A DNA stretch of 64,000 bases from Bacilli bacterium (GTDB lineage: Bacteria > Bacillota_I > Bacilli_A > RFN20 > CAG-826). The stretch is taken from assembly GCA_024399115.1 (NCBI GenBank), contig JAKSHZ010000001.1, forward strand, positions 23,801-87,800, in the 5' to 3' direction. The notes under the pieces are model-generated. The model did no database searches. It was not told where the DNA came from and worked only from the letters and a program-made list of their open reading frames with translations. This document shows, in pieces, positions 28,578-43,300 of this stretch. Numbering within the stretch: position 1 is the first letter of the stretch; each line of letters starts with the position of its first letter. Both the position numbers and the translations under genes were made by a program.

Positions 28578-29702
28578 ATGAATAAACGACCCTTTTATCT
28601 TACCAAAAGAAAGCTCGCTTCTGGTAAAATAGTATACTATTTTTATACTTATGACAAGTTTGGCAACCGTACTGTTCCACAGTCTACTGGCTGTTCAAAG
28701 AAAACAGATGCCTTTAACTATTGTAGCTCACTTTTCAAAAAAGGCAACTTAACAAATCAAAATGTTAAGTTTAAGGTTTATGCTGCAAACTTTTTTGATG
28801 AAGAAGAACGATGGTATAAAAATAAAATGGTAGAAGGTGGTATTACAGAAAATACTGTAACCACTTATCAGATTAATCTGAGAAAATACATCATGCCTTA
28901 TTTCGGAGAGATGTATATTGATAAGATCACAACCTCAGATATCAAAGCATACAGAATCCATCTTACAGAATCAGGTCTGTCAAATAAGTCTATTAATAAC
29001 TCAGTAAACATCATTCGTATTATTTTTAATTATGCAATGGAAGATGATATCATTTATAAATCTCCAGTAAATAAAACTGTTGCATCATTGAAGGTAGAAC
29101 ATAAACGAGAAGCATTTACGGATGATGAATTGGATTATATTTTCAGCAATTATTTTGAAGATGAACGTTATTATTTATTCTTACTTCTTGGTCCATTAAC
29201 TGGTATGAGATTTTCTGAAGCCTTAGGTCTTACAAGAGAAAATATCAAAGACGGATATATTGAAATAACTCATCAGTATAACAATAACAAGATTAAGGAT
29301 ATTAAGACTAAGGAAAAAAGATTTATTACAATTCCAAAGAAACTGGAAGAAATGTTACGCAAACAGGTTGGTGACAGAACTTTTATATTCTCACAGAAAT
29401 TATTAGATATACCGATTGTAGAGTCTACAACAAGGCGAAATTTGTATAATTACTACAATTTTGAGATGTTGAGACGAAAAAAAGAGAACCAACTGACATA
29501 TCACTCATTCAGATATTATCTTAATACTTTACTATTATCAAAAAATATTCCAAAGTACAAAGTCGATTTTGTAATTGGTCATTCAGAAGGAAAAGGAAGT
29601 ATGACACAACTCTACACTACTTGGAAACCTAATATGTACGATGATGTACTGAAGGTTCAGGAAGAATTGTTAGATAGATTACTTAGTTTACGAAAGCGAT
29701 AA
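28578..29702 (+). CDS. int: tyrosine integrase
   Basis: TGMRFSE (R), KTK (K), HSFR (HxxR), IGHS (H), LY (Y); SAM-like core-binding region. Confidence 0.93.
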   Translation: MNKRPFYLTKRKLASGKIVYYFYTYDKFGNRTVPQSTGCSKKTDAFNYCSSLFKKGNLTNQNVKFKVYAANFFDEEERWYKNKMVEGGITENTVTTYQINLRKYIMPYFGEMYIDKITTSDIKAYRIHLTESGLSNKSINNSVNIIRIIFNYAMEDDIIYKSPVNKTVASLKVEHKREAFTDDELDYIFSNYFEDERYYLFLLLGPLTGMRFSEALGLTRENIKDGYIEITHQYNNNKIKDIKTKEKRFITIPKKLEEMLRKQVGDRTFIFSQKLLDIPIVESTTRRNLYNYYNFEMLRRKKENQLTYHSFRYYLNTLLLSKNIPKYKVDFVIGHSEGKGSMTQLYTTWKPNMYDDVLKVQEELLDRLLSLRKR

Positions 29703-30273: not shown

Positions 30274-30660
30274 TTACTCTTCCTCCTCTAAAATATCAGG
30301 AGTAATACTACTCCCGTTAATATCACTGTAGTCGAACCCAGAGCTATACAGGTATACTTCAAGATTGTATACTTTCTCTCTAGTTGCTCGTAACTTATCG
30401 ATAACTCCATCGATTCCTTCTGTGCTTGTCCTAAGCTCGTCTGAGAGTTCTCTAAGGCTGTTTCTGACTGCAGTAACTGTAGTTGCAGCTTCAGACAAGT
30501 CTCTGTAAGCTCTTTCAAGTTCAGATTCCAATTCTCTAAGTCTATTATCGCTTTGTCTAATTCTTGTGCGATAGTCGGAGTAAAGGATTCCCCCCAGAAG
30601 TAAGATGGCAATAAAAAGACCACCAAAAGCACAAAGTATTTTTTTAATCTGCTCACTCAC
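30274..30660 (-). CDS. i-spanin (Rz)-like protein
   Basis: N-terminal TM followed by a long coiled coil, in the lysis module. Confidence 0.6.
   Translation of the reverse strand: MSEQIKKILCAFGGLFIAILLLGGILYSDYRTRIRQSDNRLRELESELERAYRDLSEAATTVTAVRNSLRELSDELRTSTEGIDGVIDKLRATREKVYNLEVYLYSSGFDYSDINGSSITPDILEEEE
30288..30656 (-). CDS. embedded alternate-frame partner protein (Rz1 position)
   Basis: 122 codons open inside the Rz-like gene; signal peptide, coiled coil, C-terminal TM. Confidence 0.5.
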   Translation of the reverse strand: MSRLKKYFVLLVVFLLPSYFWGESFTPTIAQELDKAIIDLENWNLNLKELTETCLKLQLQLLQSETALENSQTSLGQAQKESMELSISYEQLERKYTILKYTCIALGSTTVILTGVVLLLIF

Positions 30661-31006: not shown

Positions 31007-31408
31007 TCATTTTTTTCTTAAAACTCCCAAAACATTTTCTCTACTTCTTAATTTGATTTTCGCACCATCCTGCTTAAAACCATCCTGTTCAAAAACAAGA
31101 ACCTGTTTATCTGTAATTCCTAACAGAATAGCAACATGGCCATATTTATTTGTTGGACTTGAGTTCCAAATAATAACATCTCCGGGAGTTGCCCGTGAGA
31201 TTGTAAACTTATCCAAATATTTCTTTTCAAGTGGCAGCTTGTCGTAATTCAACCAAAGGTCTTTTGCTCCATCTACGCCGCCAGTATGTGGAATTTCCCA
31301 CACGTCATAACAATACTGTCTAAAAACATCAACACACTGGAAACCAAATTTTTTATCCCAGTCCACACCTTTATTGATGTATTTTGTTACAAATTCGTCA
31401 AGTTTCAC
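31007..31408 (-). CDS. CHAP-domain endolysin
   Basis: D.DKKFGFQCVD, PGDVIIW, YGHVAI, FEQDG motifs. Confidence 0.9.
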   Translation of the reverse strand: MKLDEFVTKYINKGVDWDKKFGFQCVDVFRQYCYDVWEIPHTGGVDGAKDLWLNYDKLPLEKKYLDKFTISRATPGDVIIWNSSPTNKYGHVAILLGITDKQVLVFEQDGFKQDGAKIKLRSRENVLGVLRKK

Positions 31409-32139
31409 TAAATTACCCCACTCTTTTTAAGACGTTCATCAAGGACTTGGATGTAATATTTATTCTTTTCAATACAGTCCTGAAGAACCTGACTCCAATG
31501 CTGACTCTGTTCGACATTCTTAATTTCAGCTTCGTAAAGTTTAATCTTTCTAGCACAAGACTTACGGACTTCAGTCATAACCATAACAAGCCAGTCGTCA
31601 ATTAATGTCTGGAAACTTTCTTCTACGCTATTCCACTGTTCCATTACATTTTTATCACAGTTATCTAATGTGTTTTCAAAAAGAATTTCACGATGGATTT
31701 CACGTATCATTTCTAATAATTGATTACGATATGACGGATAGTTTTCCGGCATAAGTTCTCTTGTAAAATGGTTGTTGTTGATGTACTCGTAGAAAGGGTC
31801 TTTGAAAGCATAGAATAATGAACGCCTAGATGTCTGGCACATTTTCTCAATGCAACTTATTTTTGATATTTTGTAATTACAACTTTTGGTTTGTCTTCTC
31901 ATCGAACATCTCAGTTCGTAATCTACCGATTCGATGACTTCTTGTAAGTGATACATAACAGTCTGACAAGTCTGGTCGTATTCATAATCCGAAGTCTTAA
32001 GTGTTCCTTTTGAAATACTTAACCCTAACTTTCTTACTAGAAAGAGTGTAATTGAAATTACAGCAATTATTCCCACGAATATTACGATTAAATTTGAAAG
32101 AGGCATTGTTGTTAAATTTGCAGAAATTTCACCTTGCAT
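31408..32139 (-). CDS. single-TM membrane protein in the lysis module
   Basis: Probable start MQGEIS downstream of the late promoter; one TM plus a soluble domain. Confidence 0.6.
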   Translation of the reverse strand: MQGEISANLTTMPLSNLIVIFVGIIAVISITLFLVRKLGLSISKGTLKTSDYEYDQTCQTVMYHLQEVIESVDYELRCSMRRQTKSCNYKISKISCIEKMCQTSRRSLFYAFKDPFYEYINNNHFTRELMPENYPSYRNQLLEMIREIHREILFENTLDNCDKNVMEQWNSVEESFQTLIDDWLVMVMTEVRKSCARKIKLYEAEIKNVEQSQHWSQVLQDCIEKNKYYIQVLDERLKKSGVI

Positions 32140-32167
32140 AATAAACTCCCAAGTTCCATTTTTTACA

Positions 32168-32196
32168 AGAATAATGGGATTATTAATCGTAGTTAA
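32168..32196 (-). promoter_or_regulatory. putative late promoter (TTAACTACGA-N13-TATTCT)
   Basis: Exact 10-mer at 32187-32196, heading the lysis genes. Confidence 0.65.
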
Positions 32197-32225
32197 AAAA
32201 AGGCTGTCTAAATTAATAGACAGCC
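32195..32225 (-). terminator. terminator closing the accessory cassette
   Basis: GGCTGTCTA/TAGACAGCC hairpin plus a T-run on the minus strand. Confidence 0.75.
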
Positions 32226-32231
32226 AAAGAT

Positions 32232-32675
32232 TTAAGCTACAAAAGTAAAGTAATAGGTCATTGGGCATTTACCATGAGCATCCTCATCGTTGAAATAATC
32301 CCATACCAAATCACCGAAAAATTCTGGTTCATCCTGCAATTCATACTTTTTAGCAGTTCGCATAAAATCAGAATGGAAAGCGTTCATACAAGCCCAAAAT
32401 TCACACTTAGACATTTTGGACCAGTCAACTCCAACTCTTTGACCAACTTCTGTAGTTTGTTCCATTGTCCACTTCTGACCGTCTGGAAGATTTGAAACCC
32501 AAGTTTTACAAGTTGATTCATTCAACTTAGTTCCGTAGGCTTTTTTATATACATCTTTATAGACTTCAAGTGGATCATCTTCTTTCTGAACTGCATCTGC
32601 AAGAATCATCAGTAATCCATCAGTAGATATTTTACCTTCACGTTTTACTTCTGAAATAAGTTCTGTAAGTTCCAT
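32232..32675 (-). CDS. conserved helical phage protein (cassette)
   Basis: GQKWTMEQT...EFWACMNAFHSD...DED motif seen in gut-phage cassettes. Confidence 0.65.
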   Translation of the reverse strand: MELTELISEVKREGKISTDGLLMILADAVQKEDDPLEVYKDVYKKAYGTKLNESTCKTWVSNLPDGQKWTMEQTTEVGQRVGVDWSKMSKCEFWACMNAFHSDFMRTAKKYELQDEPEFFGDLVWDYFNDEDAHGKCPMTYYFTFVA

Positions 32676-32911
32676 TATTTAATCCTTTTTACAACTTCTT
32701 TGCCAAAGATATTTTTTGTCACAGTAAACTCTCCAATACTTTCTGGAAGGTTGTCAGAAACTACTAATCCAGTTTCTTCAACAGGTTCGGTCTCTACTAC
32801 TGATTTAGTTTGTACTACTGGTTCCTCAGTAGGTTCATCCCTTAGAAAGTATTGGTCGGTAACTACTACATAATGATTTTGGCAAAAAGCACACATACCA
32901 TTACACTGCAT
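32675..32911 (-). CDS. small hypothetical protein (cassette)
   Basis: N-terminal CxxxCxxC; coupled ORF. Confidence 0.5.
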   Translation of the reverse strand: MQCNGMCAFCQNHYVVVTDQYFLRDEPTEEPVVQTKSVVETEPVEETGLVVSDNLPESIGEFTVTKNIFGKEVVKRIK

Positions 32912-32913
32912 AC

Positions 32914-33232
32914 CTAGTAGACCGTGTACCCCATAGGAGTGTTTGATACAATTACGTGAGGTGTCGTTGCACCATAGTAACCAACATACTTTTTGCCTCT
33001 CTGCAACTGAGAACCAAGAATAGGATTTCCGTATTTATTCCATAATGGAATTGTGGCTCCATTTACAGTTACCTGAACTGGAAGATTTGCACCTGCCGCT
33101 GGAATTGTGTCACAGAGCCTAAAACAGAAACGGTCTCTATCAGTTGCTGATACGGTTGTAGAGAATGCAAGTACAACTGCATCTGCACCCACTGTAACTG
33201 AATTTGCACAATGGAAGTAATTACAAGCCATA
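32914..33232 (-). CDS. beta-rich hypothetical protein (cassette)
   Basis: AAGGAG RBS before MACN; predicted beta-sandwich pattern. Confidence 0.6.
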
Positions 33233-33271
33233 AAACTCTCCTTATGGTGAGGTTTTACCCTCACCATTCAA

Positions 33272-33874
33272 TTAGCAGTTACATCCATTCCAGATGTTAT
33301 TCTTGAAAAGATCACGCATGAAGTTTTCAAGATTCTGAGTCTGAATGCCCTGTGCAGTTACAAGACCTGTTGCAAGATTCTCATTCTTAGCATCCTGTAA
33401 TTCATCACGAAGCTTCTGAATTTCATTCTGCTGAATAAGAATACGAGTTTTCTCACCATCGTCACGAATTGCATTTTTGATGCCACAGCAACAATCCTGC
33501 ATACGATAGTTAGAATCTGCAATTGCAGCCTGTACTCCACTGAATCCTGCTCCAAGATTCTGGTTTACATTTGCAAGACCTAACTGAATTCCACCGAATC
33601 CATTACAGAGGTTCTGATTTACATCAGAGAAACCACGAGTGATTTCATTCTGCATACTACGGAATTCACTGAAAGTGTTCTGACTGTTCAAACCTTCATA
33701 AAGGTCTGATTTAAGTGAGTTGTTATTGTTGTTATTCCAACCTCCGCCTCCCATCAGGAAGAAAAGGATAAGAATAACCCAGAAAGATGATGAACCAGAC
33801 CCGAAGAATCCGTCATTATCTCCTCTAATGTTGTTTGCTAATGAAAGCAAATCTGATGAAGTAACTTCACTCAT
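33272..33874 (-). CDS. G/N-rich membrane/coiled-coil protein with CCC motif (cassette)
   Basis: WVILILFFLMGGGGWNNN, LCNGF, QDCCC, C-terminal GCNC; strong RBS. Confidence 0.7.
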   Translation of the reverse strand: MSEVTSSDLLSLANNIRGDNDGFFGSGSSSFWVILILFFLMGGGGWNNNNNNSLKSDLYEGLNSQNTFSEFRSMQNEITRGFSDVNQNLCNGFGGIQLGLANVNQNLGAGFSGVQAAIADSNYRMQDCCCGIKNAIRDDGEKTRILIQQNEIQKLRDELQDAKNENLATGLVTAQGIQTQNLENFMRDLFKNNIWNGCNC

Positions 33875-33959
33875 TTTAAGCCCCCTCCTAAGAAGCTATT
33901 ATTATGTTAAGTAAAATCTTGTCATTTTTGTAGGGAAGATAAATGTATTGTTTGTGGAT

Positions 33960-33993
33960 AAAAAAAAAGGACTAACCGACCAAAGTTAGTCCT
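33960..33993 (-). terminator. intrinsic terminator within the cassette
   Basis: AGGACTAAC/GTTAGTCCT hairpin plus a T-run on the minus strand. Confidence 0.75.
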
Positions 33994-34003
33994 AGGGGAA
34001 AGG

Positions 34004-34201
34004 TTACTTTTTCTTGAATATATTTAATAAGTAACTTGCTTTCTGTTTGGCATCTTCAATTTCTGAGTTTGAATACCTCCCGGAAGAAATTACTTCATTC
34101 AACATTTGTTCAGGAGTTTTCCCAGACCTTTTAATCTGATTTGAAAACTCATTAATCTGAGATATCAAGCTCTGGTTGTTCTGGTTGTTTTTCAGTTGCA
34201 T
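34004..34201 (-). CDS. small Q/N-rich helical protein (cassette)
   Basis: TPEQMLNEVISSG.YS pattern. Confidence 0.6.
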   Translation of the reverse strand: MQLKNNQNNQSLISQINEFSNQIKRSGKTPEQMLNEVISSGRYSNSEIEDAKQKASYLLNIFKKK

Positions 34202-34550
34202 ACTTCACTCCATTATCAACTCGATTTGCAAGTTTGTTTATTGTCTGAATTAAATTGTCATATTCCAACTTTGAAATACTAACAGGTGTACTTTCAGCTT
34301 CATATGATTCAGTTACATCTGTAAGTTTGAATATTCTTAATGATAGTTTGCCGATAGAATCGCATTCCTTGATATAAAGGATGTCGGCATTTGGATCTAG
34401 TAATAGATATGAATCTCCACGGTTCAAATGAAAATCTTTAGCCTGCTGCAGACTATTTACAGTAATGATTTCATGTTTCCCCGGATTAAAAACGTTTAAT
34501 AAATTTGTTGCTTGAGATATTGAATTGTAATCAAAACCCATAACTCCCAC
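34152..34550 (-). CDS. hypothetical protein (cassette)
   Basis: V.SLQQAK...LLLD...LYIK.CD.IG pattern. Confidence 0.6.
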   Translation of the reverse strand: MGVMGFDYNSISQATNLLNVFNPGKHEIITVNSLQQAKDFHLNRGDSYLLLDPNADILYIKECDSIGKLSLRIFKLTDVTESYEAESTPVSISKLEYDNLIQTINKLANRVDNGVKYATEKQPEQPELDISD

Positions 34551-34589
34551 CTCTTTATATTTACAATACTTTGGGTTTAGATAAAGTAG

Positions 34590-34633
34590 AATAGACTATT
34601 TATTGACTCTTTATGGAACTTGTATTGACCTCT
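34590..34633. repeat. four degenerate 11-bp direct repeats
   Basis: AATAGACTATT / TATTGACTCTT / TATGGAACTTG / TATTGACCTCT. Confidence 0.45.
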
Positions 34634-34929
34634 GGATATTTACTTGGTTTAATATTAAGTAAAGAAAGAATTTGAGTTGCATTTTCTCTGTTCTCAATCC
34701 ATTTGTACAACTTCTTGATAGAACGGTGTAATGCTTTACTTACTGAGTTTTCTTCGATTACTAGTAAGTCTGCACATTCTTTAAGAGAGAGTCCTTTTAC
34801 AAATCTTGTGTACAAAACTTCTCTCTCCCTTGCAGACAAATTAGAACTGTCGATTAAATCATAAGACTCTTTTCTTCCTAATGTGCTGAAAAGATTTTTA
34901 CAGAAAATAAATTCGTTTGTCATTTTCAT
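34600..34929 (-). CDS. sigma70 region-4-like HTH regulator
   Basis: LSAREREVL.TRFVKGLSLKECADLL...SVSKALHRSIKKL; GAGGT RBS before MKMTNE. Confidence 0.75.
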   Translation of the reverse strand: MKMTNEFIFCKNLFSTLGRKESYDLIDSSNLSAREREVLYTRFVKGLSLKECADLLVIEENSVSKALHRSIKKLYKWIENRENATQILSLLNIKPSKYPEVNTSSIKSQ

Positions 34930-34979
34930 AATGCTTACCTCTTTTGTAATTAAATCTATAAGCAATATTATTTATTATT

Positions 34980-35006
34980 TGATTAGATGAGACTGTCATC
35001 TAATCA
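34980..35006. promoter_or_regulatory. perfect inverted repeat in the divergent control region
   Basis: TGATTAGATGA-N5-TCATCTAATCA. Confidence 0.55.
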
Positions 35007-35043
35007 TCAATTACTATTCAAAAACCACTAAAGAGAGAGTTTT

Positions 35044-35691
35044 ATGGTAAGAGATAGGATTAAATTATTTTTAACTGATTTTGTACAGGTCGGATTATCA
35101 ATAATAAACTTATTATTATTGATAGCAATGATTTTTGATCCAAATGAAAGAGATACTTTCTTTTGGATTTACTTTGGAATGAGAGTTATGTTTATTCCAA
35201 TTACGATATTATTTGGGGATAGAGGAATCTGGGCGTTTTACTTTATTTACACCAACATCAAAGCCTTAGATATCACATTTGATAACTTAACTTGTGTTGC
35301 AATTATTTCATTACTTTTTACAATTCTTCCTAAAGTAGATAAAAAGAAAGCAATTGTTATTGCAGCATTGTATGTTACAGATATTTTTATTGTTGCCAGT
35401 ATTCACAATAAACAGCCATTTTATATTTATGTACATTTATTAGGATGTCTTGGATATTGTATAGCAATGTGGAAACTGAAGTCTTCAATTTCTAATAACA
35501 AAAGATTAAAGTTATTGCCTGACGAAATTAAAATACTTACATACCTTTCGGAAGGTCGTTTACAAAAAGAAATCCTTGAGTTCTCAGAAAATACTGTTTA
35601 TAGAAAACTCAAGGAGGCAAGAATAAGAAATGGTATTAAGGATAATGAAGAATTATTAATGATATTTATGGATAATAAAGATGCTTACTGA
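35044..35691 (+). CDS. polytopic membrane protein with C-terminal LuxR-type HTH
   Basis: About six TM segments, then L.PDEIKILTYLSEGRLQKEI...SENTV.RKL..AR. Confidence 0.75.
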   Translation: MVRDRIKLFLTDFVQVGLSIINLLLLIAMIFDPNERDTFFWIYFGMRVMFIPITILFGDRGIWAFYFIYTNIKALDITFDNLTCVAIISLLFTILPKVDKKKAIVIAALYVTDIFIVASIHNKQPFYIYVHLLGCLGYCIAMWKLKSSISNNKRLKLLPDEIKILTYLSEGRLQKEILEFSENTVYRKLKEARIRNGIKDNEELLMIFMDNKDAY

Positions 35692-36684
35692 CTAACTACC
35701 AATTGCAAACCAATCAAATGGTTCTGTTGCCATACCACTATTATAAACAGAATAGAAATCAAAACTGGTAGATGTAACATTTTCAATCATAGCAACTAAA
35801 ATTGAATTTCCACTATTATGTCTCATAGTTGTGGTAACGCTATAGTTTTCACTTGTGAACGGTATTGGTAATGTTATAGTACCTTTCGATAAATTATTTG
35901 TTTTCTTTCCCCACTGTAAAGTCAATCCGTTTGTAAGTTTCAGCCAAGAACCGTTTTCATTACTACCAGAGTTAAACAAGTTATTAATTGTATCGTAAAT
36001 ACTTGTAAGTTTATCACTTACATTTTGAGCAGTCCAAACATTTGTTACTGATGTTTTCGCATCATCAACAGTAACTGATGATGGTACTGGGAAATTTTTA
36101 TAAACTTCTTTAGCTTTGATAATGTAATTAAAACCAACCTGTTTTCCGTGAGTTGTTTTTCCGTTTCTTGGCTCACCATATTCGTCATCAAACTTAGTTG
36201 GTAAACCAAGATTTGCATAACCTTCTAATGTAGTATTAGTTCTATTATGGTTGTTACCATAGTCGTTTGTGTTACCTGCACTATCACTACTAGATGCACG
36301 AATTCCGTGAGTATGTCCTGCATCATCGTGTTTATGACCTTGAAGTTGGTCATCTCTAAATTCACCTAAACTTACTGGGTCGTGAGTTGCAATATCATAA
36401 GTAACGTTTTCACCTGCACCAACGATTTCAACTTCTCTTAAGTCTGGGAGTTTGAAATATCCTTCTGGAGTATCTTCATTATTAAAATAATCTCCGAAAA
36501 TATCATACAATTCCTGATATTCGGTGATACTAAGATTCTGACCTTTAAGAGAAATATATCCAAGTGGTAAATTTTCAGATGGCCATGCAAATATTGTTCC
36601 AATAGGAACACCGCCACCAAAACGAGTTTTTAGTCTGTCGTAAAACTCACCTAAAATTGATTTAATACCCTGATAATCAGCCAT
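35692..36684 (-). CDS. tail fibre protein with tail-collar domain
   Basis: VPIGTIFAWP...P.GY...GQ.L....Y.EL...FKLPDLR; C-terminal KL.NGL.LQWG...WFAIG. Confidence 0.85.
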   Translation of the reverse strand: MADYQGIKSILGEFYDRLKTRFGGGVPIGTIFAWPSENLPLGYISLKGQNLSITEYQELYDIFGDYFNNEDTPEGYFKLPDLREVEIVGAGENVTYDIATHDPVSLGEFRDDQLQGHKHDDAGHTHGIRASSSDSAGNTNDYGNNHNRTNTTLEGYANLGLPTKFDDEYGEPRNGKTTHGKQVGFNYIIKAKEVYKNFPVPSSVTVDDAKTSVTNVWTAQNVSDKLTSIYDTINNLFNSGSNENGSWLKLTNGLTLQWGKKTNNLSKGTITLPIPFTSENYSVTTTMRHNSGNSILVAMIENVTSTSFDFYSVYNSGMATEPFDWFAIGS

Positions 36685-36687
36685 CTA

Positions 36688-39600
36688 TTACTCCTCGAAA
36701 ACATCATCAAAATCTCTATCAGTCATTGAAACTGATACGTCTAAGAAATTACATTTGACTGAATTTGGGTCTTTTGCCCAGATTACAAAGTTCGAGTTTT
36801 CTGGATCCAAAGCCTGTGTAATTCCTTTAGTTACGAATCTAGATTGTGTCTTAAAATATTTATCAATTGCTGCATCCAAATCTTCAATTTCTTGTTCTGA
36901 TGGATTAGGAAGGTAAGCAATCTCATCTGCTCCATATTCAAGATAAATCTTATCTCCCGGAATGTATGGAACTTCTGTAGACCAGATTTTGTATGGAGAA
37001 GAACTTCTTCCAGTATTTTCAACTTTCTCATATTTAGAGACTATTAAGTTATGGTTTGCTACATCGTTCTTAATACGATAGAAAGTCCAGTTATTTGGAG
37101 TTGCATTTACGATTGGTGTCAATCTATCTACATAGATATTTTCAAGACTTGTACATCCTGAAAAACATTCATCCATGTTTGCACCAATCATCATTTCTAA
37201 TGGCATTTCCCATTTTTCAATTGTAACTAAGTTTGAACATCCTTCAAACATATAAGATAAATCTCTGACAAACATTGGTTCTGCTTCCCCTGAGCCTTCA
37301 CTTCCAATATCGGTCATTTCTACAACAGGAACATTTTTTACAGTTTCTAAAGATGTACATCCATAAAAACATCCTGAAGTATTAGATGCACGAGGTAATT
37401 TAGGGGAAGTTTTAATCATAGAACAATGATTAAAAGTCCCTCCTAAATCAACAGGAATTTCAAATCCATCTTTCATAGGTTGTGGTATTTCTGGAATTTC
37501 TTTTAAGGCATAACATCTGGAGAAACTTTCGTACAAATCAATGACAGTATTAGGAATCGCAGGTGCAGCAACAAGATTTTCGCAATCTGTAAAGCAATTG
37601 GCCAAAGATATGATACCATCTGGGAGTTCCGTTTCAGACATATCCAAATATACATTTATTTCATGACGCAAAACTTCACTTTCCTCTATTAAATCTCCGA
37701 TTCCTGCGTATAATACATTAGCTAATGGTGAATGATAATATTTAGCAGCCAAATCTGCCTGAGTTAACTCTGTCACCTTAATCTTATAAGGATGGTCAAT
37801 ATCATTATGGTCTTGCCAAAGGATCCAAGTACTAAGGATTCTAAAAGGAATATCAGTATTAATTGCTTTTACTATTTGTTTCATATTACCTAAAGAACCT
37901 TGAATATCAGATGCAGAAAATTTGTTTTCAAAAGCTTTGTAGATACTTTTTTCAACCTTAATTTCCATTTCAACATCTTCTGTGAAAATATCTGTGAGTT
38001 TATCGCAGAGATAAAAATCAAATTCTGTTCCTGTGAAATCGGTTGCTTCCCATAATGATATTTCAGTCAAATTAGAACATCCACTAAAAGTCAAAGATAA
38101 ATCTTTAACATTAACTGGAATATTGGAAATTTTTCTGAGATTTGTACAATTCATAAAACATTGCATCATTGATGTAACAGAATCAGGGATGCCTGTAATT
38201 TCATATAAATCCTCACATCCTTCAAATGTGGAATTCATATTAGTAATTCCGTTTGGTAAATCTGGTTGTTGTTGTAAATTTATACAATTAGCAAATGTAT
38301 TTGTTAAGGATCTTACCCCATCGGGAAGTTTTGGAGGATACATTAATGCTTTACAATTGTTAAAGGCATACATTAATCCATCAATAACTGGTAATTGGGT
38401 GTCTCTTAAATCCAGATATTTATATGGATATTGTTCAATGGTATATCCTAAAGGACATCTAATAGCACCGTCTATAATAGAGATTGCTAATGCTTCAACA
38501 GGAATCTCTGTTATATTGATTTTATATGGAATCATTGGTGGAACTTCACTAACCATAGAAATCCACTCTTCGAAATTCACGTATGGGATTTCGTTAGTAT
38601 CAGCTTTTACAGTTGAATTAATATTAAAAGGGAATGATGAAGTATGAACTTCAATATCCTTTAAGGCTTTCTCTAAGAGTAATTCTTCGTAAGGACCATT
38701 AACAATTATTTCTTGTATTGAAGAGTTAATAAATATTTCATCATATGCATCATACGTGTTTATACCTTCTCCACTAGAAGATATATTAAGTATAGGGCTA
38801 CTAGGCTCAATTTCCCATTTGTTAATCTTTGTTAATTTTGGACAATCAGCAAATGAGTGCCATAAAGCCATAGCTCCTGAAGGAATATTTGTAATTACTT
38901 CAAGATTTTCGCATCCTGCAAAAATTCCAGCTATAACCAATTCATTATTATTTGGTAATTTAGGGGATTGAATCATACTTGTACAATATTCAAATGTTTG
39001 ATTCAATGAACTTACTGAAGAAGGTATTGCCGGTATGTGAGTTAGGTTTTTACAATTTCCAAAGCAACCTGTTAAATCAACTAAATTTTTTGGAATATTT
39101 GGGATTGTAATAATTGCAGTTCCATAAAAAGTTCCGACCATTTCAGTAACTGATTCTGGAATAGTTGGAGTACTTTCTAAATTCTTACAATTTGCAAATG
39201 TGTAATACAAATTTGTAACAGTTGAGGGGATATTATTTATATGAGAAATACCTGTTCCTTGAAAAGAACCTAGCATAGTTTCAATTGAGTCTGGTAAAGT
39301 TCCAATTTCAGTAATTTTTTGACAATTTGAACAAATATTATCAATATTTTTTACTCCTTCATAAAGTGTTGGAAATACAATTAGATTCGAACAATTTTCA
39401 AAAGTTCCAGACAATTCAATTGCATTTATAAACTGTGGCGGCGTAATTAATGTTTTTAAGCCGTTGAATGAAGCGTGATAAATACCATCTGCTTTTGATA
39501 ATACAGTTTCTGACATTCCAATATATATATTTTTATATCTATTAAGTATAAAATTAAAAGAATTTTTATTTACAGGATCTAATGCTTCATCTGTTATATC

Positions 39601-40293
39601 AATTACATTAATTTCATACGGAGAATCTAAATCATTTTTTTCTTGGTGCTGTAACCATAAGTCTAATTCATAAAACCCAATACGTGTTTCAAGATTTTTA
39701 ACTATGTCCTCAAAGCCACCTATTCTTTGAGCTTTATGAAATAAGAAATCAATTAGTTTATATTTCGCAGTATAATTACTTATTTTTTTTTCAGAATCAT
39801 ATGCATAAATTGTTAAATTAGTATTTGTACCATCAAATGCATATATAGCTGTAGATTTCATTATTGAAAAACTTTCATCAGAAATTTCCCATTCAGAAAT
39901 CTCTTCTAAGTTAGTACAACCTTGAAAAATGTATTCAAAGTCTGTTAAATAACAAGGTATTCGGGGTATAACCTTTAAATTACCGCAATAACTAAAACAC
40001 CTATTCATACTTGCACAATTATTGTCTATTACGGGGGCAATAACTAAGTGGGGAATACCACTAAATGCCGAATCAAGATTTGTTAAACTTAACTTAGAAC
40101 GGGATAAGTTTACATAAATTGTAGGATTATATTTCATTAAATGGGTTACTGTTGACAATGCAGAATCTAAATCATTAATTTGAATATCATAAGGTTCATC
40201 TGCTGTATTTTGAGGCAATGACTCGAAAAGAGTATGTATTGATTCGTAATCAGAATCACATTCGTACCATCCATCATGTATATAAACACCCAT
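36688..40293 (-). CDS. leucine-rich-repeat (BspA/TpLRR-like) tail-associated protein
   Basis: Many IP.SV..L..TF..C..L repeats arranged in four modules. Confidence 0.75.
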   Translation of the reverse strand: MGVYIHDGWYECDSDYESIHTLFESLPQNTADEPYDIQINDLDSALSTVTHLMKYNPTIYVNLSRSKLSLTNLDSAFSGIPHLVIAPVIDNNCASMNRCFSYCGNLKVIPRIPCYLTDFEYIFQGCTNLEEISEWEISDESFSIMKSTAIYAFDGTNTNLTIYAYDSEKKISNYTAKYKLIDFLFHKAQRIGGFEDIVKNLETRIGFYELDLWLQHQEKNDLDSPYEINVIDITDEALDPVNKNSFNFILNRYKNIYIGMSETVLSKADGIYHASFNGLKTLITPPQFINAIELSGTFENCSNLIVFPTLYEGVKNIDNICSNCQKITEIGTLPDSIETMLGSFQGTGISHINNIPSTVTNLYYTFANCKNLESTPTIPESVTEMVGTFYGTAIITIPNIPKNLVDLTGCFGNCKNLTHIPAIPSSVSSLNQTFEYCTSMIQSPKLPNNNELVIAGIFAGCENLEVITNIPSGAMALWHSFADCPKLTKINKWEIEPSSPILNISSSGEGINTYDAYDEIFINSSIQEIIVNGPYEELLLEKALKDIEVHTSSFPFNINSTVKADTNEIPYVNFEEWISMVSEVPPMIPYKINITEIPVEALAISIIDGAIRCPLGYTIEQYPYKYLDLRDTQLPVIDGLMYAFNNCKALMYPPKLPDGVRSLTNTFANCINLQQQPDLPNGITNMNSTFEGCEDLYEITGIPDSVTSMMQCFMNCTNLRKISNIPVNVKDLSLTFSGCSNLTEISLWEATDFTGTEFDFYLCDKLTDIFTEDVEMEIKVEKSIYKAFENKFSASDIQGSLGNMKQIVKAINTDIPFRILSTWILWQDHNDIDHPYKIKVTELTQADLAAKYYHSPLANVLYAGIGDLIEESEVLRHEINVYLDMSETELPDGIISLANCFTDCENLVAAPAIPNTVIDLYESFSRCYALKEIPEIPQPMKDGFEIPVDLGGTFNHCSMIKTSPKLPRASNTSGCFYGCTSLETVKNVPVVEMTDIGSEGSGEAEPMFVRDLSYMFEGCSNLVTIEKWEMPLEMMIGANMDECFSGCTSLENIYVDRLTPIVNATPNNWTFYRIKNDVANHNLIVSKYEKVENTGRSSSPYKIWSTEVPYIPGDKIYLEYGADEIAYLPNPSEQEIEDLDAAIDKYFKTQSRFVTKGITQALDPENSNFVIWAKDPNSVKCNFLDVSVSMTDRDFDDVFEE

Positions 40294-40309: not shown

Positions 40310-43300
40310 TTAAGGATTTACCTTAAATAAGTTTGTTGGGATTGTTTCAAAACCCCAGTTTTCATCAATCATTCTGTTATAACCTAATATTACCTCACCA
40401 TCAGTTCGTATTTTAGATTCACCAACAGAAATGCCGTCAGCTTCACTTTCAAACATAAGGTCAAAAGTTTTATTAGGAATATCAAAACTTACATCTCCTG
40501 AGAGATAAGATTTAGCACCGTCAGATTTAACAACTCCAGATGCAATAAGCTCTAAAGGATTCTTTCCTTCTTCATCTGTAAAGTTTCCCGGTTTATTGAA
40601 GTGATAAATTGCAGATACGATTTCAACACCAGCTTGGGGGAGTTCGCTTTCATCCGTATTATTGGTTAATGTAAGAGTTCCGTTCTGGTCGATTACTATT
40701 TTTCCCTGATCATACCATTCGGTGTTTTCGAAATCTCTTTTTTGGATAACAAATCCATTTTCTTTTAATACAAGACGCTGGAATTTATTATTTGCACTTG
40801 TAATTTCAGTACCATTATCAAGACTTGTTCCACTAGTGGTCAAAGTAATGTTTCCAGCTTTAATTTCAACTTCGTAATCAAGACTCTGTGTAATTGGGTC
40901 AAGTTTCGGAGTAACCTTAATATGCTGCTCATCATTACCAACTTGGAAAGCACCTTTGTAAATAATATCTTCAAGGCCTGTATCTTCTGGTAACAATGTA
41001 CTTAATGCCCAGTAGTTACTCTTACCAAACTCTCCCATACCACCTTGAGAAATCAAACCGATATTCGCACAGATAGCAGAAAGACGTTTTACATATAAGT
41101 CCTGATAGTTCATGTTTGCTTTAACAATATCGCTAAGACTTGTACATAATGCGGTTACTGTAACAACTGCAGGAGTTCCTTCTCCAGCTTCTGTGAAAGG
41201 AGTAATCTGATACTGATATACGGTATTAAGGATTCTTTCTGAATATGGAGAATCTTTACCTTTCTGACCTAACAATGGTAAAGTCTGACTAAATATATTT
41301 CCGTAAATACCTTCGCCTACTTCACCTTTGTAAGCATCTTCATCCACCAAGAAAGTTCCATACAAATCTGGTGCATACCATTCTGTATCAATAATGTCAT
41401 CTAATGTAACACCTTCTTTAAGTGCATATTCAGAATCTAAGTCAGATTCTCTAGCCTTAGTGAACCCGATACGTTTAATAGAAATCTTGTATTTTAAGTC
41501 ACCGTAAAGGCTTCTGCTTGTGCTTGCAGGATAACACTTAATAATTACATTTCTATCAAGAACATCTACCGAAACATTATCTTCTTTTGTAAAGTTTGGA
41601 ATTTTCCAAGTTCCATAACCGACAGTATTTACATTTGCAACAGCCCAGTTTTCAGATTCGTTTCCATAAATGTTTATTGCTTTTACTCTGAATTTCCATT
41701 CACTAAGTGTTGCAGCTTCTGGATATCCATCTACAGTTCTATCAAAGATGTAAGTATCATTTACGATTTCAACTGGTTCAAAAGACTTAGTAACATAAGA
41801 ATATTTATTACCTTCTTCCAAGACAGGTTCTACTCCCTGTGGAATAGTTGTCGGAATAGTGAATAACTCATCTTCATAATAGTTATCATCTTTCTTGTAT
41901 ACTATATGAATAACTGGAATTTCACGTTCATATACAAATCCATTAACAGTTTCTGGAAGACTACTTGTTTCCGGCATTATTGGTCTAAGCTCGATGTAAT
42001 CTTTATATGCGTAACATTCAAGAGTAGGAACATCAATTGGTTTTACATCACTTGTGTAAACTCCACCAATGGACTCAGATGTTTTTTCTGCAAGTTCTGA
42101 TGCAGTTACATATGGTCTGAATTCAAAACTTTCAGCCATAGTAGGAAGTGTCATATTAGATTTGAATACAGGAGTTTTGAAACCTGCATGGAATAAGTCT
42201 TCGTTATAAGGAATAGCAACTAAATCGAATTTATCTTTTGCTTTAGGTGTAATAGAAGCAACAATTGCTTTAATATACATCTTGCCGATTTCACCGTATA
42301 CAACCAGATTGTCGTACTGAGGTCTGAACTGACTTAAGATACCATCTTGAACAGATTCTGCAGATGTTTCTGTACTCTTATTGATTGGGTTTTCTAATAA
42401 TATTAAATTAGTCAAACCTTTCTTCATTGAGTAAATCTTTTCATTGATTTCAACATGAGCACTTTCTCTAGCGACTCTTAAAGTTACACATCTTGAGGCC
42501 TGATATTTAGAAGGCTGAACAATTGTTACACCCTGTACAGATAATCCTTTGTCATCGAGTACACCAGTATATTCAAATGGTTCATCAGTAACAAAACCGT
42601 AAATCATTGAATCATCTTCAATAACTTCTTGGATTCTTGCACCACTATCAGTTCCTACAAGTAAAGTATCATCTTGGATCAATAAAGTATCTCCAAGAGA
42701 TAATGAGTATCCAATCATACCTACAGAGGCATTATAAGTCTCTCTCTGATATAACCTACAAGCCAAGTTGTACTTAGTAAGACACGCAAGCTGGTCTTTA
42801 CTAGTTACATATTCCATATTGAATTGTTCAATTTTCTTTGTTGGGTCTTCTGGTCTTTCACCTTTATCCATTACATAGAAATCATTAGTTCCGTAATTAT
42901 CGTCTTCATCAGTTAACGATGCTTGGAAACCACTTGGAAGTTCATCAAGAATCTTTGTATTAGAACGACTATGGCAGTTTCTCTGATTAAGAACTGTAAC
43001 AGGATAAGGGTTAGGTCTACCAATTAATGGCTCATATTTATTGTCATCACTTCTCTTTAAGTTTGCTCTACCCGTAGCAAGTAACTTAGGAAGCAACTGT
43101 TCCATTTTGATTTCTTTAGTGAGAACACCATTTGCTCTGAAACGATAATGTTTTAAGTTATCCGATTCTTTACAGTATTTTGTAGAACCTTTATTTAATG
43201 TCTGTTCAAGATACATTAATACTGGTTGATAATAGCCATTGAATGAATATGAATTATTAGTTCCTTCTTCTGCTGATAAATCATTCATTAAAAGAATAAG

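What the first reader, a model, noticed from the sequence alone, without database searches (positions are those of the whole stretch)
32232..35691. Seven-gene cassette of unknown function facing a membrane-bound LuxR-type sensor
Seen: a self-contained unit between the tail fibre and lysis genes, bounded by its own terminators. It holds a sigma70-region-4 HTH, two small proteins, an internal terminator, a G/N-rich TM plus coiled-coil protein with CCC and terminal CxC, a Cys-tipped beta protein, a CxxxCxxC peptide and a helical W..EQT protein. Divergent from it is a ~6-TM protein with a LuxR HTH, across a perfect 11-bp inverted repeat (34980-35006). From recall, similar gene sets recur in gut phages of other phyla without an assigned function. 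Inference: a signal-responsive lysogen module, perhaps building a Cys-crosslinked surface or coat-like assembly, or mediating communication or dormancy. This is the best candidate for an undescribed multi-gene system here.
Basis: partly seen in the sequence, partly recalled or inferred. Interest (0 to 1): 0.8.

Follow-up and report, generated by a model that had tools for sequence, protein, structure and literature searches.

The report
Conserved phage stalk-and-knob gene module
The cassette is a real, widely conserved but undescribed phage gene module that appears to build a hydrophobically anchored coiled-coil stalk carrying a tail-fibre-like knob, and its core protein also occurs in lytic E. 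coli phages where it could be tested directly.

Summary
The cassette is not a local oddity. Its 200-aa core protein (p200) belongs to a family with no Pfam model and 3,507 representative clusters. In 98 related loci the order sigma-region-4 HTH > p132 > small protein > p200 > small beta "knob" > helical protein recurs, always on one strand. The knob slot holds either the window's p117 or a C1q/BclA-like protein. A model of p117 matches a bead of the Pseudomonas phage Pa193 tail fibre and many phage fibre or receptor-binding proteins. p200 relatives also occur in virulent Edwardsiella, Aeromonas and E. coli T1-like phages next to tail-fibre genes, and are almost absent from plasmids.

My best reading, about 40%, is a two-piece accessory phage fibre (stalk plus knob) with its own assembly factors and activator. 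The lysogen-signalling, coat or dormancy reading is poorly supported. The membrane LuxR-like protein accompanies only 3 of 98 loci, the host assembly shows no Spo0A, and no partner protein has an export signal. The function remains untested.

The parts
35044..35691 (+). 215-aa membrane protein with 4-5 hydrophobic segments and a C-terminal LuxR/GerE-like HTH, divergent from the cassette. It is an occasional companion, not part of the core.
   Evidence: ORF. Hydropathy. No Pfam hit. A profile of 5 relatives hits TraR at 0.01 and GerE at 0.011. Relatives occur in only 3 of 98 loci. Paralogues elsewhere in the same genome.
34980..35006 (.). Perfect 11-nt inverted repeat with a 5-nt spacer (TGATTAGATGA/TCATCTAATCA) in the divergent intergenic region. 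Candidate operator.
   Evidence: the half-site is unique in the window. As RNA it folds at -13.6 kcal/mol, z -4.2, with no U-run after it. No matching repeat was found in L019, L012, L004 or L007.
34600..34965 (-). Sigma-70 region-4-only HTH protein. The probable true start is the ATG at 34929. Presumed activator of the module.
   Evidence: Pfam Sigma70_r4_2 4.8e-9 and Sigma70_r4 1.8e-8. NCBIfam 'positive control sigma-like factor' 6e-7, below its cut-off. An HTH gene lies upstream in 79 of 98 loci.
34152..34550 (-). p132: N-terminal helix, small beta core (residues 27-75) and C-terminal helix. Relatives carry a Q/N/M/P/Y-rich N-terminal extension. Proposed assembly factor.
   Evidence: phrog_21718, function unknown. 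Alignment A3. AF2 model with pLDDT 76.5. No significant fold match; best Z is 4.6. Present in 90 of 98 loci.
34004..34201 (-). p65: small helical protein. Met/Gln-rich small proteins hold the same slot in relatives.
   Evidence: phrog_22984. p65-type or c3-type genes in 51 of 98 loci. Homology between the two types was not shown (hhalign probability 12.6%).
33968..33993 (-). Intrinsic terminator after p65. It splits the cassette into two transcription units.
   Evidence: -13.3 kcal/mol, z -3.2, followed by a U9 run. It has no counterpart in L019, where the p65 and p200 genes overlap.
33898..33925 (-). Promoter-like site (ATGACA-16-AATAAT, 10 of 12 matches) in front of p200.
   Evidence: This is a consensus match only; the region has no excess of such sites (27 found, 28.6 expected).
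33272..33874 (-). p200, the core protein. It has an acidic N-terminus, a Gly-flanked hydrophobic segment, an N/Q-rich coiled coil punctuated by G-F motifs, an invariant CCC, a second coiled coil and a C-terminal CxC.
   Evidence: Alignment A1. 115 relatives. 3,507 representative clusters at E<=1e-3. phrog_16490 and phrog_9288, both unknown. No Pfam family. Hydropathy and flanking charges. Cys tails.
32914..33267 (-). p117: beta-sandwich 'knob' with a fold like tail-fibre bead or knob domains.
   Evidence: AF2 model with pLDDT 79 and pTM 0.71. VIA-align Z 6.5, rmsd 2.9 over 89 residues to Pa193 tail fibre gp47 residues 245-340, next Z 3.5. 42 BFVD matches at E<=1e-3, many of them phage fibre or RBP proteins. 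p117-type genes in 32 of 98 loci.
32675..32911 (-). p78: small protein with an N-terminal CxxxCxxC and a conserved C-terminal G.YEVKK.IFGK motif.
   Evidence: Relatives in L019 (with Cys) and L004 (without Cys). The radical-SAM hits are only to the Cys motif (E 0.047 in Pfam and 0.006 in PHROGs); 78 aa is too short for such an enzyme.
32232..32675 (-). p147: helical DUF7841 protein. A ferritin-like ~200-aa protein holds the same slot in most relatives.
   Evidence: PF25223 at 2e-15. Present in 8 of 98 loci, against 68 for the ferritin-like c2. The two are unrelated by hhalign. A 294-aa crAss-like-virus protein named DUF7841-domain-containing matches the p117 model (rank 11).
32202..32225 (-). 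Intrinsic terminator closing the cassette.
   Evidence: -15.9 kcal/mol, z -6.0, followed by a U7 run.
31408..32139 (-). Roughly 243-aa protein with one N-terminal TM segment and a helical body, lying between the cassette terminator and the CHAP endolysin. Whether it belongs to the module is uncertain.
   Evidence: ORF 31408-32268. The terminator overlaps its 5' part, so a later start near 32139 is inferred. TM at residues 50-86 of the long ORF. 55% identical relative in L019 only. No family hit.

Best explanation
The cassette is one variant of a conserved, phage-specific module that builds a two-piece fibre-like assembly. In my reading p200 is the stalk: an N/Q-rich, probably trimeric coiled coil with a glycine-flanked hydrophobic N-terminal anchor and cysteine clusters (CCC mid-helix, CxC at the C-terminus). 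p117 is a small trimer-type knob of the kind found at the ends of phage tail fibres, coupled to the Cys-rich stalk end by metal or disulfide bonds.

I read p132 and p65 as dedicated assembly factors that may shield the hydrophobic segment. p147 (DUF7841) takes the place a fibre-assembly chaperone would take. The sigma-region-4 protein switches the module on, and in this phage a membrane LuxR-like protein adds an extra input.

All parts would be made and assembled in the cytoplasm. The product is most likely an accessory, membrane-active fibre of the virion or infection apparatus rather than a lysogen surface coat.

Shown: the gene content, the conserved order, the family sizes, the predicted knob fold, the Cys pattern and the phage restriction. 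Inferred: trimer state, stalk-knob coupling, chaperone roles, virion location and any membrane activity.
For: 1. Conserved module. In 98 loci found through p200, a p132-type gene is present in 90, a knob gene in 86, an HTH gene in 79, a c2 or p147 gene in 76 and a small p65/c3 gene in 51. All labelled genes share the p200 strand in 98 of 98 loci.

2. The knob slot holds fibre-knob-type proteins.
- The p117 model gives one standout PDB match, Pa193 tail fibre gp47 bead III: Z 6.5, rmsd 2.9 over 89 residues, next row Z 3.5.
- It has 42 BFVD matches at E<=1e-3. After five small relatives these include proteins named tail fiber, T7 tail fibre, tail-collar fiber, receptor binding protein, hyaluronidase tail fiber, collagen triple helix and coiled stalk of a trimeric adhesin.
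- The alternative knobs (c6, c25) hit BclA_C below its cut-off in 6 of 9 proteins scanned. As a profile they hit C1q at 5e-5 and BclA at 0.039.

3. Position. Tail genes lie just upstream in 37 of 98 loci, in the window itself, in eiAU after the host-specificity and tail proteins, and in BASEL phage KarlJaspers directly after the lateral tail fibre and its chaperone.

4. Phage restriction and presence in virulent phages. A gut-phage p200 hits 53 phage records but 1 of 72,556 plasmid records. A profile built without Gram-negative members scores eiAU gp08 at 6e-22 and bas06_0034 at 7e-12.

5. No export signals. Only p200 has a hydrophobic segment among the seven cassette proteins, which fits assembly in the cytoplasm.

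6. Cys coupling. CCC is nearly invariant. The three knob-less relatives (L002, L003, L004) all lack the C-terminal Cys cluster, and L004's p78 relative also lacks its Cys motif.

7. A 294-aa crAss-like-virus protein named DUF7841-domain-containing matches the p117 model (rank 11). This suggests that knob and DUF7841 work together.
Against: - No virion proteomics or structure covers any member. The one proteomics paper I could link, on phage B2, concerns an unrelated protein.
- The module carries its own regulator and terminators, and it sits in variable places. It lies inside the head gene block (L079 type), ahead of the capsid genes after a CI-like repressor (L040), and beyond the lysis genes, between an antirepressor gene and recombination genes, in a C. 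perfringens phage. That pattern suits an accessory 'moron' as well as a virion part.
- A strongly hydrophobic segment is unusual in a soluble fibre.
- The ferritin-like and Q/N-rich partners have no precedent in fibre modules that I know of.
- L006 and L074 have a knob gene, yet their p200 lacks the C-terminal Cys cluster.
- The 98 loci are redundant. Many are near-identical contigs from one gut dataset, and p132 collapses to 32 sequences at 70% identity, so the counts are not independent.
- The Pa193 region that p117 matches is itself a fitted AlphaFold model.
- Stalk-knob binding was not tested.
Confidence: 0.4

Rival explanations
1. The same stalk-and-knob assembly stays in the membrane of the infected or lysogenic cell. 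p200 is anchored by its N-terminal segment and acts there, for example in superinfection exclusion by blocking DNA entry or masking a receptor, or in some other envelope takeover. It is not built into virions.
For: Own regulator, own promoter-like site and terminators. Variable genome position like a moron. A single hydrophobic anchor in p200. Three unrelated protein types in the knob slot, which suggests fast turnover against a variable target. From my own knowledge, exclusion genes commonly sit beside fibre or RBP genes (T5 llp, T1 cor) and also occur in virulent phages.
Against: The knob and the other partners have no signal peptide. The p200 N-terminus is acidic with 0-2 K/R in all 37 sequences of A1, so the bulk of the protein would face the cytoplasm, away from incoming phage. 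Strong conservation of CCC and the coiled coil from Proteobacteria phages to Firmicutes phages argues against a host-receptor-specific role.
Confidence: 0.2
2. One reading: a signal-responsive lysogen module that builds a Cys-cross-linked surface or coat-like layer, or mediates communication or dormancy, under control of the membrane LuxR-type sensor.
For: The parts list resembles spore-surface components: BclA_C/C1q-like knobs, a ferritin-like partner in relatives (ferritin at 6.6e-5) and Cys-rich tips. A membrane LuxR-like gene and a palindrome face the cassette.
Against: The LuxR-like gene is present in only 3 of 98 loci. No Spo0A was found in the 91.5%-complete host assembly. p200 occurs in virulent phages of non-sporulating Gram-negative hosts. 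No cassette protein other than p200 has a hydrophobic or signal-like segment. The window's own cassette has neither the BclA-like nor the ferritin-like protein.
Confidence: 0.08
3. p200 is a lysis accessory with a spanin-like or fusogenic action. It has an N-terminal membrane anchor, two coiled-coil segments and intermolecular Cys links, and would act with the adjacent lysis genes.
For: The architecture resembles the i-spanin Rz (my recollection of Rz; p200 features). In the window the cassette abuts the lysis block of CHAP endolysin and a 2-TM holin-like protein. Weak PDB profile hits are to class I fusion heptad repeats.
Against: eiAU encodes its holins and lysis accessory protein about 20 kb away from its p200 gene. 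In other phages the module lies in head or early regions. The host assembly shows no Omp85, so there may be no outer membrane to fuse. The window already has a separate TM-plus-coiled-coil protein with a weak Rz-like hit (phrog_739, 9e-4).
Confidence: 0.07
4. The cassette is mobile cargo unrelated to particle or envelope function, for example an undescribed defence or counter-defence system.
For: Self-contained regulation and variable insertion sites. All core families are of unknown function.
Against: No PADLOC match apart from an HTH-only hit. Nearly absent from plasmids, 1 of 72,556 records. No enzymatic domain in the window's cassette. The knob proteins have fibre-type folds.
Confidence: 0.08

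Closest known systems
Two-part phage tail fibres with a separate distal adhesin or knob and a dedicated chaperone (T4/T2 gp37 with gp38, lambda Stf with Tfa). Recalled from knowledge.
   Same: A stalk gene followed by a small knob gene and then a helical chaperone-like gene. Position next to tail-fibre genes in many members. The knob fold is shared with fibre domains. There are no export signals.
   Different: p200 has no detectable sequence relation to any fibre family. It carries a hydrophobic anchor and a CCC motif. The module has its own sigma-region-4 regulator, Q/N/M-rich partners and, in most relatives, a ferritin-like partner. Virion location is unproven.
BclA exosporium filament of Bacillus and Clostridium: collagen stalk, C1q-like C-terminal knob, anchored on a Cys-rich basal layer.
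   Same: Relatives carry a stand-alone BclA_C/C1q-like knob directly after the stalk gene. The ends are Cys-rich.
   Different: There is no collagen repeat. The knob is a separate small protein. The window's own knob (p117) is not C1q-like (hhalign probability 2%). All BclA_C hits fall below Pfam's cut-off. The hosts include non-sporulating bacteria, and this host shows no Spo0A.
i-spanin Rz of phage lambda.
   Same: Similar size, an N-terminal hydrophobic anchor, two coiled-coil stretches and conserved cysteines (Rz features recalled).
   Different: There is no o-spanin partner. The gene lies away from the lysis genes in eiAU and many others. The family occurs in phages of a host with no Omp85 hit. 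The only PHROG spanin hit in the window belongs to another protein.
Class I viral fusion proteins (coronavirus S2, influenza HA2, retroviral TM subunits).
   Same: The order of elements is alike: a Gly-rich hydrophobic peptide, a long N/Q-rich heptad region, a cysteine cluster and a second helical region. 28 of the 29 weak PDB profile hits are to S2 HR1 or HA2.
   Different: All E-values are 0.033 or worse, and the PDB holds very many such chains. There is no C-terminal membrane anchor, no known proteolytic priming and no enveloped particle. p200 could not be folded here.
Single-domain sigma-region-4 or LuxR-type phage activators, such as the PBSX positive control factor Xpf.
   Same: The HTH protein matches sigma-70 region 4 and the NCBIfam 'positive control sigma-like factor' at 6e-7 over region 4. 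It sits at the head of the genes it would control.
   Different: It has region 4 only (64-123 aa in relatives). The score is far below the NCBIfam cut-off (29.3 against 136 bits). Its target promoters are unknown.

Membership tests
Phage tail fibre / receptor-binding protein module | Knob or bead domain with a fold shared with known fibre proteins | tested here: met
   The p117 model matches Pa193 gp47 residues 245-340 at Z 6.5, rmsd 2.9 over 89 residues. It has 42 BFVD hits at E<=1e-3 that include named tail fibre and RBP proteins. The c6/c25 knobs hit C1q at 5e-5.
Phage tail fibre / receptor-binding protein module | The proteins are physically part of the virion | not testable with these tools
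   I found no proteomics or structure for any member. Phage B2 ORF16, detected in virions, is unrelated.
Phage tail fibre / receptor-binding protein module | Trimeric stalk that binds the knob | not tested
BclA-type exosporium filament | BclA_C/C1q-like C-terminal domain | tested here: not met
   For the window's cassette, p117 has no BclA_C hit and is unrelated to the c6/c25 profile (hhalign probability 2%). Relatives at the same slot do carry it, below the cut-off, in 6 of 9 proteins scanned.
BclA-type exosporium filament | Collagen-like GXX repeat stalk and a sporulating host | tested here: not met
   p200 has no GXX collagen repeat. No Spo0A_C match in the 91.5%-complete assembly.
Two-component spanin (Rz/Rz1) | i-spanin encoded with an o-spanin lipoprotein inside the lysis cassette of a diderm host's phage | tested here: not met
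   No lipoprotein partner lies in the cassette. The eiAU p200 gene is about 20 kb from its holin and lysis genes. No Omp85 hit in the host assembly.
Class I viral fusion protein | Significant sequence or fold relation of the HR1/HR2 regions, and a C-terminal membrane anchor | tested here: inconclusive
   The best PDB profile hit is E 0.033, to S2 HR1. There is no C-terminal hydrophobic segment. No structure of p200 was predicted.
LuxR/GerE-type regulator (the 215-aa membrane protein) | C-terminal LuxR-type HTH recognised by a family model | tested here: inconclusive
   Pfam finds nothing at E<=0.1. A profile of 5 relatives hits the TraR DNA-binding domain at 0.01 and GerE at 0.011.
Sigma-70 family (the HTH protein) | Region 4 present; region 2 present for a true sigma factor | tested here: not met
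   Region 4 matches at 4.8e-9, but only residues 42-88 match and the protein is too short for region 2. It is a region-4-only protein, not a complete sigma factor.
Known anti-phage defence systems (PADLOC) | Any cassette protein matching a defence-system model | tested here: not met
   Of 12 proteins scanned, only the HTH matched anything, and that was the HTH part of a CARF model at 2e-4.
Ferritin-like proteins (partner c2 in relatives) | Four-helix ferritin fold with metal-binding E/H motifs | tested here: inconclusive
   Profile A6 hits four ferritins at 6.6e-5 to 4.7e-4, but only over profile positions 9-68. Conserved H, E and Q residues are listed. It was not folded, and c2 is absent from the window's own cassette.

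The most novel reading that the evidence does not exclude
p200 may be a phage counterpart of a class I fusion or membrane-insertion machine. A glycine-rich hydrophobic peptide, an HR1-like N/Q-rich trimeric coiled coil, a cysteine cluster and a second helical region would be delivered with a fibre-type knob and kept soluble by Met/Gln-rich chaperones. Under this reading, tailed phages from Proteobacteria to Firmicutes share a previously unseen device that inserts into the host membrane during infection. The Cys clusters and the ferritin-like partner might point to a metal-stabilised stalk.
Probability: 0.12. Interest if true: 0.9.

Novelty: new variant of a known kind. Interest (0 to 1): 0.66.

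Why it matters
The core protein family is very large: 3,507 clusters at 50% identity, 1,593 of them at E<=1e-10. It spans phages of Firmicutes, Proteobacteria and contigs binned with spirochaetes and other phyla. It has no Pfam, NCBIfam or PADLOC entry and no solved relative, and I found no paper on it. It comes with a fixed set of partner genes, which points to a shared piece of phage biology that current annotation misses.

If it is an accessory or membrane-active fibre, it bears on host recognition and DNA delivery in many gut phages. If it is an exclusion device, it bears on phage-phage competition.

Members sit in virulent E. coli K-12 phages of the BASEL collection. The question can therefore be settled with ordinary genetics and virion proteomics.

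Tried and rejected
- **Single-protein and broad-alignment scans.** The search for related loci with the single p200 protein found no relative in viral contigs. The wide alignment A1 had no conserved stretch to search with. The closer alignment A2 worked.
- **Family libraries.** No Pfam family for the p200 or p132 families. No NCBIfam or PADLOC family for any non-HTH protein. No Pfam family for the Gram-negative four-gene block.
- **ESM Atlas.** Only unnamed viral clusters came back, and no usable named hit.
- **p132 fold.** No significant match. Foldseek's best E was 0.16. VIA-align's best was Z 4.6 to the collagen XV trimerisation domain, within the noise range the tool describes.
- **PDB sequence profiles.** p147 gave nothing. 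p132 gave nothing meaningful. p200 gave only weak heptad-repeat hits.
- **Profile-profile comparisons.** c2 against p147, p117 against c6/c25 and p65 against c3 showed no demonstrable homology. These pairs are positional equivalents only.
- **Fused forms.** None found among proteins of 537-2000 aa. The tool itself calls this weak evidence, and the range between about 350 and 537 aa was not searched.
- **Complex prediction.** Complex prediction for p200 x3 plus p117 x3 was not available, so binding is untested.
- **Expression.** No RNA holder was listed for the region. Three runs hold all or part of it, one of them possibly the source sample, and I did not lay reads.
- **Earlier findings.** Nothing came back by place, by sequence or by words. 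One call failed on the word limit.
- **Literature.** 'DUF7841' returned 0 papers. BclA/prophage/C1q/phage returned nothing relevant in the listing. Drexlerviridae + lateral tail fiber + sugar-binding protein returned 0. Hanrivervirus + mass spectrometry + structural proteins returned 0. The C. perfringens phage names returned 3 papers, none with proteomics judging from the listing. I saw the vB_YenS_P400 paper in a listing only.
- **Phage B2 virion proteomics.** I read passages only. ORF16, detected in virions, is not a p200 relative (hmmsearch E 0.2).
- **Inverted repeat.** No matching repeat upstream of the HTH gene in L019, L012, L004 or L007.
- **Spirochaete host.** The closest genome locus is labelled Treponema, but this assembly has no Omp85 hit. 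The FlaA search found nothing in any control genome either, so it is uninformative.

Full report
**1. What is in the window**

The minus strand between the tail fibre gene and the CHAP endolysin carries seven consecutive ORFs. The tail fibre gene is 35692-36684 (Pfam Collar and Gp53-like_C) and the endolysin is 31007-31408.

| Name | Coordinates | Main feature |
|---|---|---|
| HTH | 34600-34965 | Sigma70_r4_2 at 4.8e-9 |
| p132 | 34152-34550 | phrog_21718, unknown |
| p65 | 34004-34201 | phrog_22984, unknown |
| p200 | 33272-33874 | phrog_16490/9288, unknown |
| p117 | 32914-33267 | no family |
| p78 | 32675-32911 | starts MQCNGMCAFC |
| p147 | 32232-32675 | DUF7841 at 2e-15 |

Two hairpin-plus-U-run terminators sit directly after the stop codons of p65 and p147. 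They fold at -13.3 kcal/mol (z -3.2) and -15.9 kcal/mol (z -6.0). A 10-of-12 promoter-like site precedes p200. The simple scans show no excess of such sites in the region, so their placement is what carries weight.

The divergent 215-aa ORF (35044-35691) has 4-5 hydrophobic segments. Its C-terminal stretch is only marginally recognisable as a LuxR-type HTH, with TraR at 0.01 and GerE at 0.011 and no Pfam hit. The perfect 11-nt inverted repeat at 34980-35006 is real and unique in the window.

The whole 64-kb window looks phage-like. It holds Rad52-like, DnaB and DnaC-like genes, an integrase, lysis genes, the cassette, tail genes and a 2,526-aa tape measure. No host gene lies in it, and the integrase sits between the replication and lysis blocks.

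**2. The cassette is one variant of a widespread module**

p200 has 115 relatives in the word-indexed search, none with a Pfam domain or an informative name. A profile of 37 of them finds 3,507 representative clusters at E<=1e-3, 1,593 at <=1e-10 and 160 at <=1e-30 among 1.84 billion representatives.

Using p200 as bait I collected 98 loci:
- 3 from GenBank phages.
- 15 from species-representative genomes, out of 332 pattern matches.
- 80 from IMG/VR, the best 80 of 473 confirmed matches.

The genome loci carry labels such as Treponema, Oscillospiraceae, Lachnospiraceae, Erysipelotrichaceae, Faecalibacillus, Gastranaerophilales and Bacillales.

Iterated local profiles and clustering of the neighbouring ORFs give the following counts out of 98 loci.

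| Gene type | Loci |
|---|---|
| p132-type | 90 |
| Knob gene directly after p200 | 86 |
| Sigma-region-4 HTH | 79 |
| ~200-aa helical 'c2' or p147 | 76 |
| Small p65- or c3-type | 51 |
| Membrane LuxR-like | 3 |

Every labelled gene is on the p200 strand in all 98 loci. IMG/VR locus L019 has the complete window set, including the LuxR-like gene and the 286-aa ORF, but with the LuxR-like gene co-directional.

These loci are not independent. Many are near-identical contigs from one gut dataset, and p132 collapses to 32 sequences at 70% identity.

The module's location varies. Tail genes lie upstream in 37 loci, head genes flank it in 27, and the other 34 have a different or unknown context. In a C. 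perfringens phage it lies beyond the lysis genes, between an antirepressor gene and recombination genes.

**3. The parts**

- **p200.** It has a short acidic N-terminus, with 0-2 K/R in all 37 sequences of A1 and 1-5 D/E in 36 of them. One glycine-flanked hydrophobic segment follows. Next comes an N/Q-rich helical region punctuated by G-F motifs, then a nearly invariant CCC, a second coiled-coil stretch, and usually a C-terminal GCGC-type cluster.
- **p117.** The AF2 model is a confident beta sandwich (pLDDT 79, pTM 0.71). Against about 48,000 PDB representatives it has one standout match: chain 2 of 9b45 at Z 6.5, rmsd 2.9 over 89 residues, with the next row at Z 3.5. From passages of the paper (PMC11456595), that chain is Pa193 tail fibre gp47 residues 1-340, described as three trimeric 'beads'. 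p117 matches the third bead. That part of the deposit is a fitted AlphaFold model.
- **p117 against predicted viral structures.** There are 42 matches at E<=1e-3. The top five are small uncharacterised relatives. They are followed by long proteins named tail fiber, T7 tail fibre, tail-collar fiber, receptor binding protein, hyaluronidase, collagen triple helix and coiled stalk of a trimeric adhesin. Rank 11 is a 294-aa crAss-like-virus protein named 'DUF7841 domain-containing'. This suggests that the p117 fold and the p147 domain can occur in one polypeptide.
- **Alternative knobs.** In other loci the knob slot holds c6 or c25 proteins. These hit Pfam BclA_C below its cut-off in 6 of 9 scanned. 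As a profile they hit C1q at 5e-5 and BclA at 0.039. They are not detectably related to p117.
- **Ferritin-like partner.** The c2 partner, in 68 loci, matches ferritins at 6.6e-5 to 4.7e-4 over its first two helices. It is unrelated to p147.
- **p132.** The model has a well-predicted small beta core and a C-terminal helix, with no significant fold match. Its relatives carry Q/N/M/P/Y-rich N-terminal extensions.
- **Export signals.** None of the cassette proteins except p200 has a hydrophobic or signal-like segment.

**4. The family reaches virulent Gram-negative phages and is restricted to phages**

A profile built without Gram-negative members scores Edwardsiella phage eiAU gp08 at 6e-22 and E. 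coli phage KarlJaspers (BASEL Bas06) bas06_0034 at 7e-12, over nearly the full length. Both keep the Gly-rich hydrophobic N-terminus and the CCC.

In eiAU the gene follows the host-specificity and tail proteins, and lies about 20 kb from the holin and lysis genes. In KarlJaspers it follows the lateral tail fibre and its chaperone, and is annotated 'putative sugar-binding protein'. The Aeromonas phage protein hits 84 phage records, mostly Escherichia, Yersinia and Salmonella siphoviruses. A gut-phage p200 hits 53 phage records but only 1 of 72,556 plasmid records.

**5. The host**

The window lies on a 182-kb contig of a 2.13-Mb assembly in 189 contigs, 35% G+C, 91.5% complete. No Omp85 and no Spo0A_C match was found. 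Both searches rang in control genomes. The host is therefore probably a monoderm that does not sporulate, though the assembly is incomplete.

**6. Interpretation**

The most economical reading of the anatomy is a two-piece fibre. The stalk is p200, hydrophobically anchored and rich in cysteine. The knob is a small trimer-type protein with a fold used in tail fibres. Assembly would take place in the cytoplasm with help from p132 and p65, plus a downstream helical protein in the place a fibre chaperone would take. A region-4-only activator would switch it on.

The three knob-less relatives (L002, L003, L004) all lack the C-terminal Cys cluster, and L004's p78 relative also lacks its Cys motif. 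That fits coupling through the Cys tips. There are exceptions: L006 and L074 have a knob but no terminal Cys in p200.

I favour a virion or infection-apparatus role, at about 40%, for four reasons:
- The family is restricted to phages.
- It is present in virulent phages.
- It frequently neighbours fibre genes.
- The partner proteins have no export signals.

The self-contained regulation, the variable position and the hydrophobic anchor keep a cell-membrane role alive at about 20%, for example superinfection exclusion. The spanin-like, defence-cargo and lysogen coat or signalling readings each have specific evidence against them (section 7 and the rival entries).

One intriguing but weak lead remains. 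Of the 29 sub-threshold PDB profile hits for p200, 28 are coronavirus S2 HR1 or influenza HA2 segments, with a best E of 0.033. The order of elements also parallels class I fusion proteins: a Gly-rich hydrophobic peptide, a long heptad region, a Cys cluster and a second helix. PDB over-representation of those proteins and shared composition could explain this on their own.

**7.

The claim that similar gene sets recur in gut phages of other phyla without an assigned function is borne out.

The lysogen, signal-sensing or dormancy interpretation is not. The LuxR-like sensor is a rare add-on, the core occurs in lytic phages, and the host shows no sign of sporulation. Whether the cassette is expressed in a lysogen could not be examined.

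**8. Limits**

No experiment or expression data bear on function. The stalk-knob interaction and the trimer state are inferred. Locus counts are inflated by redundancy. All BclA_C, ferritin and LuxR assignments are below curated thresholds or cover only part of the protein.

I searched the full-text library for DUF7841 and for several phage and keyword combinations and found nothing describing this module. Papers outside that library and supplementary tables were not seen.

Noticed in passing
L104:5821-7645 (Escherichia phage KarlJaspers) and L103:10475-12329 (Edwardsiella phage eiAU): In the Gram-negative phages the p200-like gene is followed by a conserved trio: a ~110-aa helical His-rich protein, a ~165-aa protein and an 85-aa Met-rich helical protein. 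None has a Pfam family. The Met-rich one resembles the small Met/Gln-rich slot of the Firmicutes module, so this block may be the same module in another order.
   Followed up: partly
window 19845-21020 (-): TnpB-type gene (OrfB_IS605, HTH_OrfB_IS605 and the Cas12f1-like TNB domain) inside the phage's early region. I did not look for a guide RNA or for element ends.
   Followed up: no
window 4527-5762 (+) and G000:C1:18128-19384: Two RRXRR-HNH endonuclease genes on the same contig.
   Followed up: no
G000:C1:13403-14716 (outside the window, upstream): Reverse transcriptase gene (RVT_1 at 5e-21) in the phage-like region of the same contig. It could belong to a diversity-generating retroelement or a retron.
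   Followed up: no
window 28578-29702 (+); G000:C1 as a whole: The integrase sits between the replication block and the lysis block, with only about 250 bp to the next phage gene. The window holds no host gene. Large ORFs beyond the terminase (C1:97-106 kb) have no Pfam hit, and a second integrase lies at C1:151287-152522. It is unclear whether the element is integrated, where it ends, or whether C1 holds several elements.
   Followed up: partly
G000:C119:11053-11739 (L102:2054-2740, -) and G000:C1:155224-155388: The membrane LuxR-like protein has paralogues in the same genome. One is a 228-aa full-length copy on a small phage-like contig, 32% identical over 174 aa. The other matches only the HTH part.
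   Followed up: partly
window 30274-30660 (-): A 128-aa protein with an N-terminal TM segment and a coiled coil gives a weak 'Rz-like spanin' hit (phrog_739, 9e-4). Yet the host assembly shows no Omp85. An almost equally long ORF (30288-30656) overlaps it in another frame.
   Followed up: no
window 36688-40293, 40310-46405 and 48085-55665 (-): Very large tail proteins: a 1,201-aa protein with BspA-type leucine-rich repeats, a 2,031-aa protein with no family and a 2,526-aa tape measure. These imply an unusually long tail.
   Followed up: no
L063:6584-7639: In one IMG/VR contig p132 and p200 are read as a single 351-aa ORF. This could be a real fusion or a sequencing frameshift.
   Followed up: no
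window 35096-35124: A second perfect inverted repeat (12 nt arms, 5 nt spacer: TATCAATAATAA/TTATTATTGATA) lies inside the 5' part of the LuxR-like gene.
   Followed up: no
L020:2208-2956 and relatives (clusters c35, c5): In one gut-phage lineage two small membrane proteins precede the HTH gene, between the tail genes and the module. One is a ~105-aa TM-plus-coiled-coil protein, the other a ~140-aa protein with a central TM segment. They may be holin-like, and no endolysin was recognised in those 14-kb loci.
   Followed up: partly
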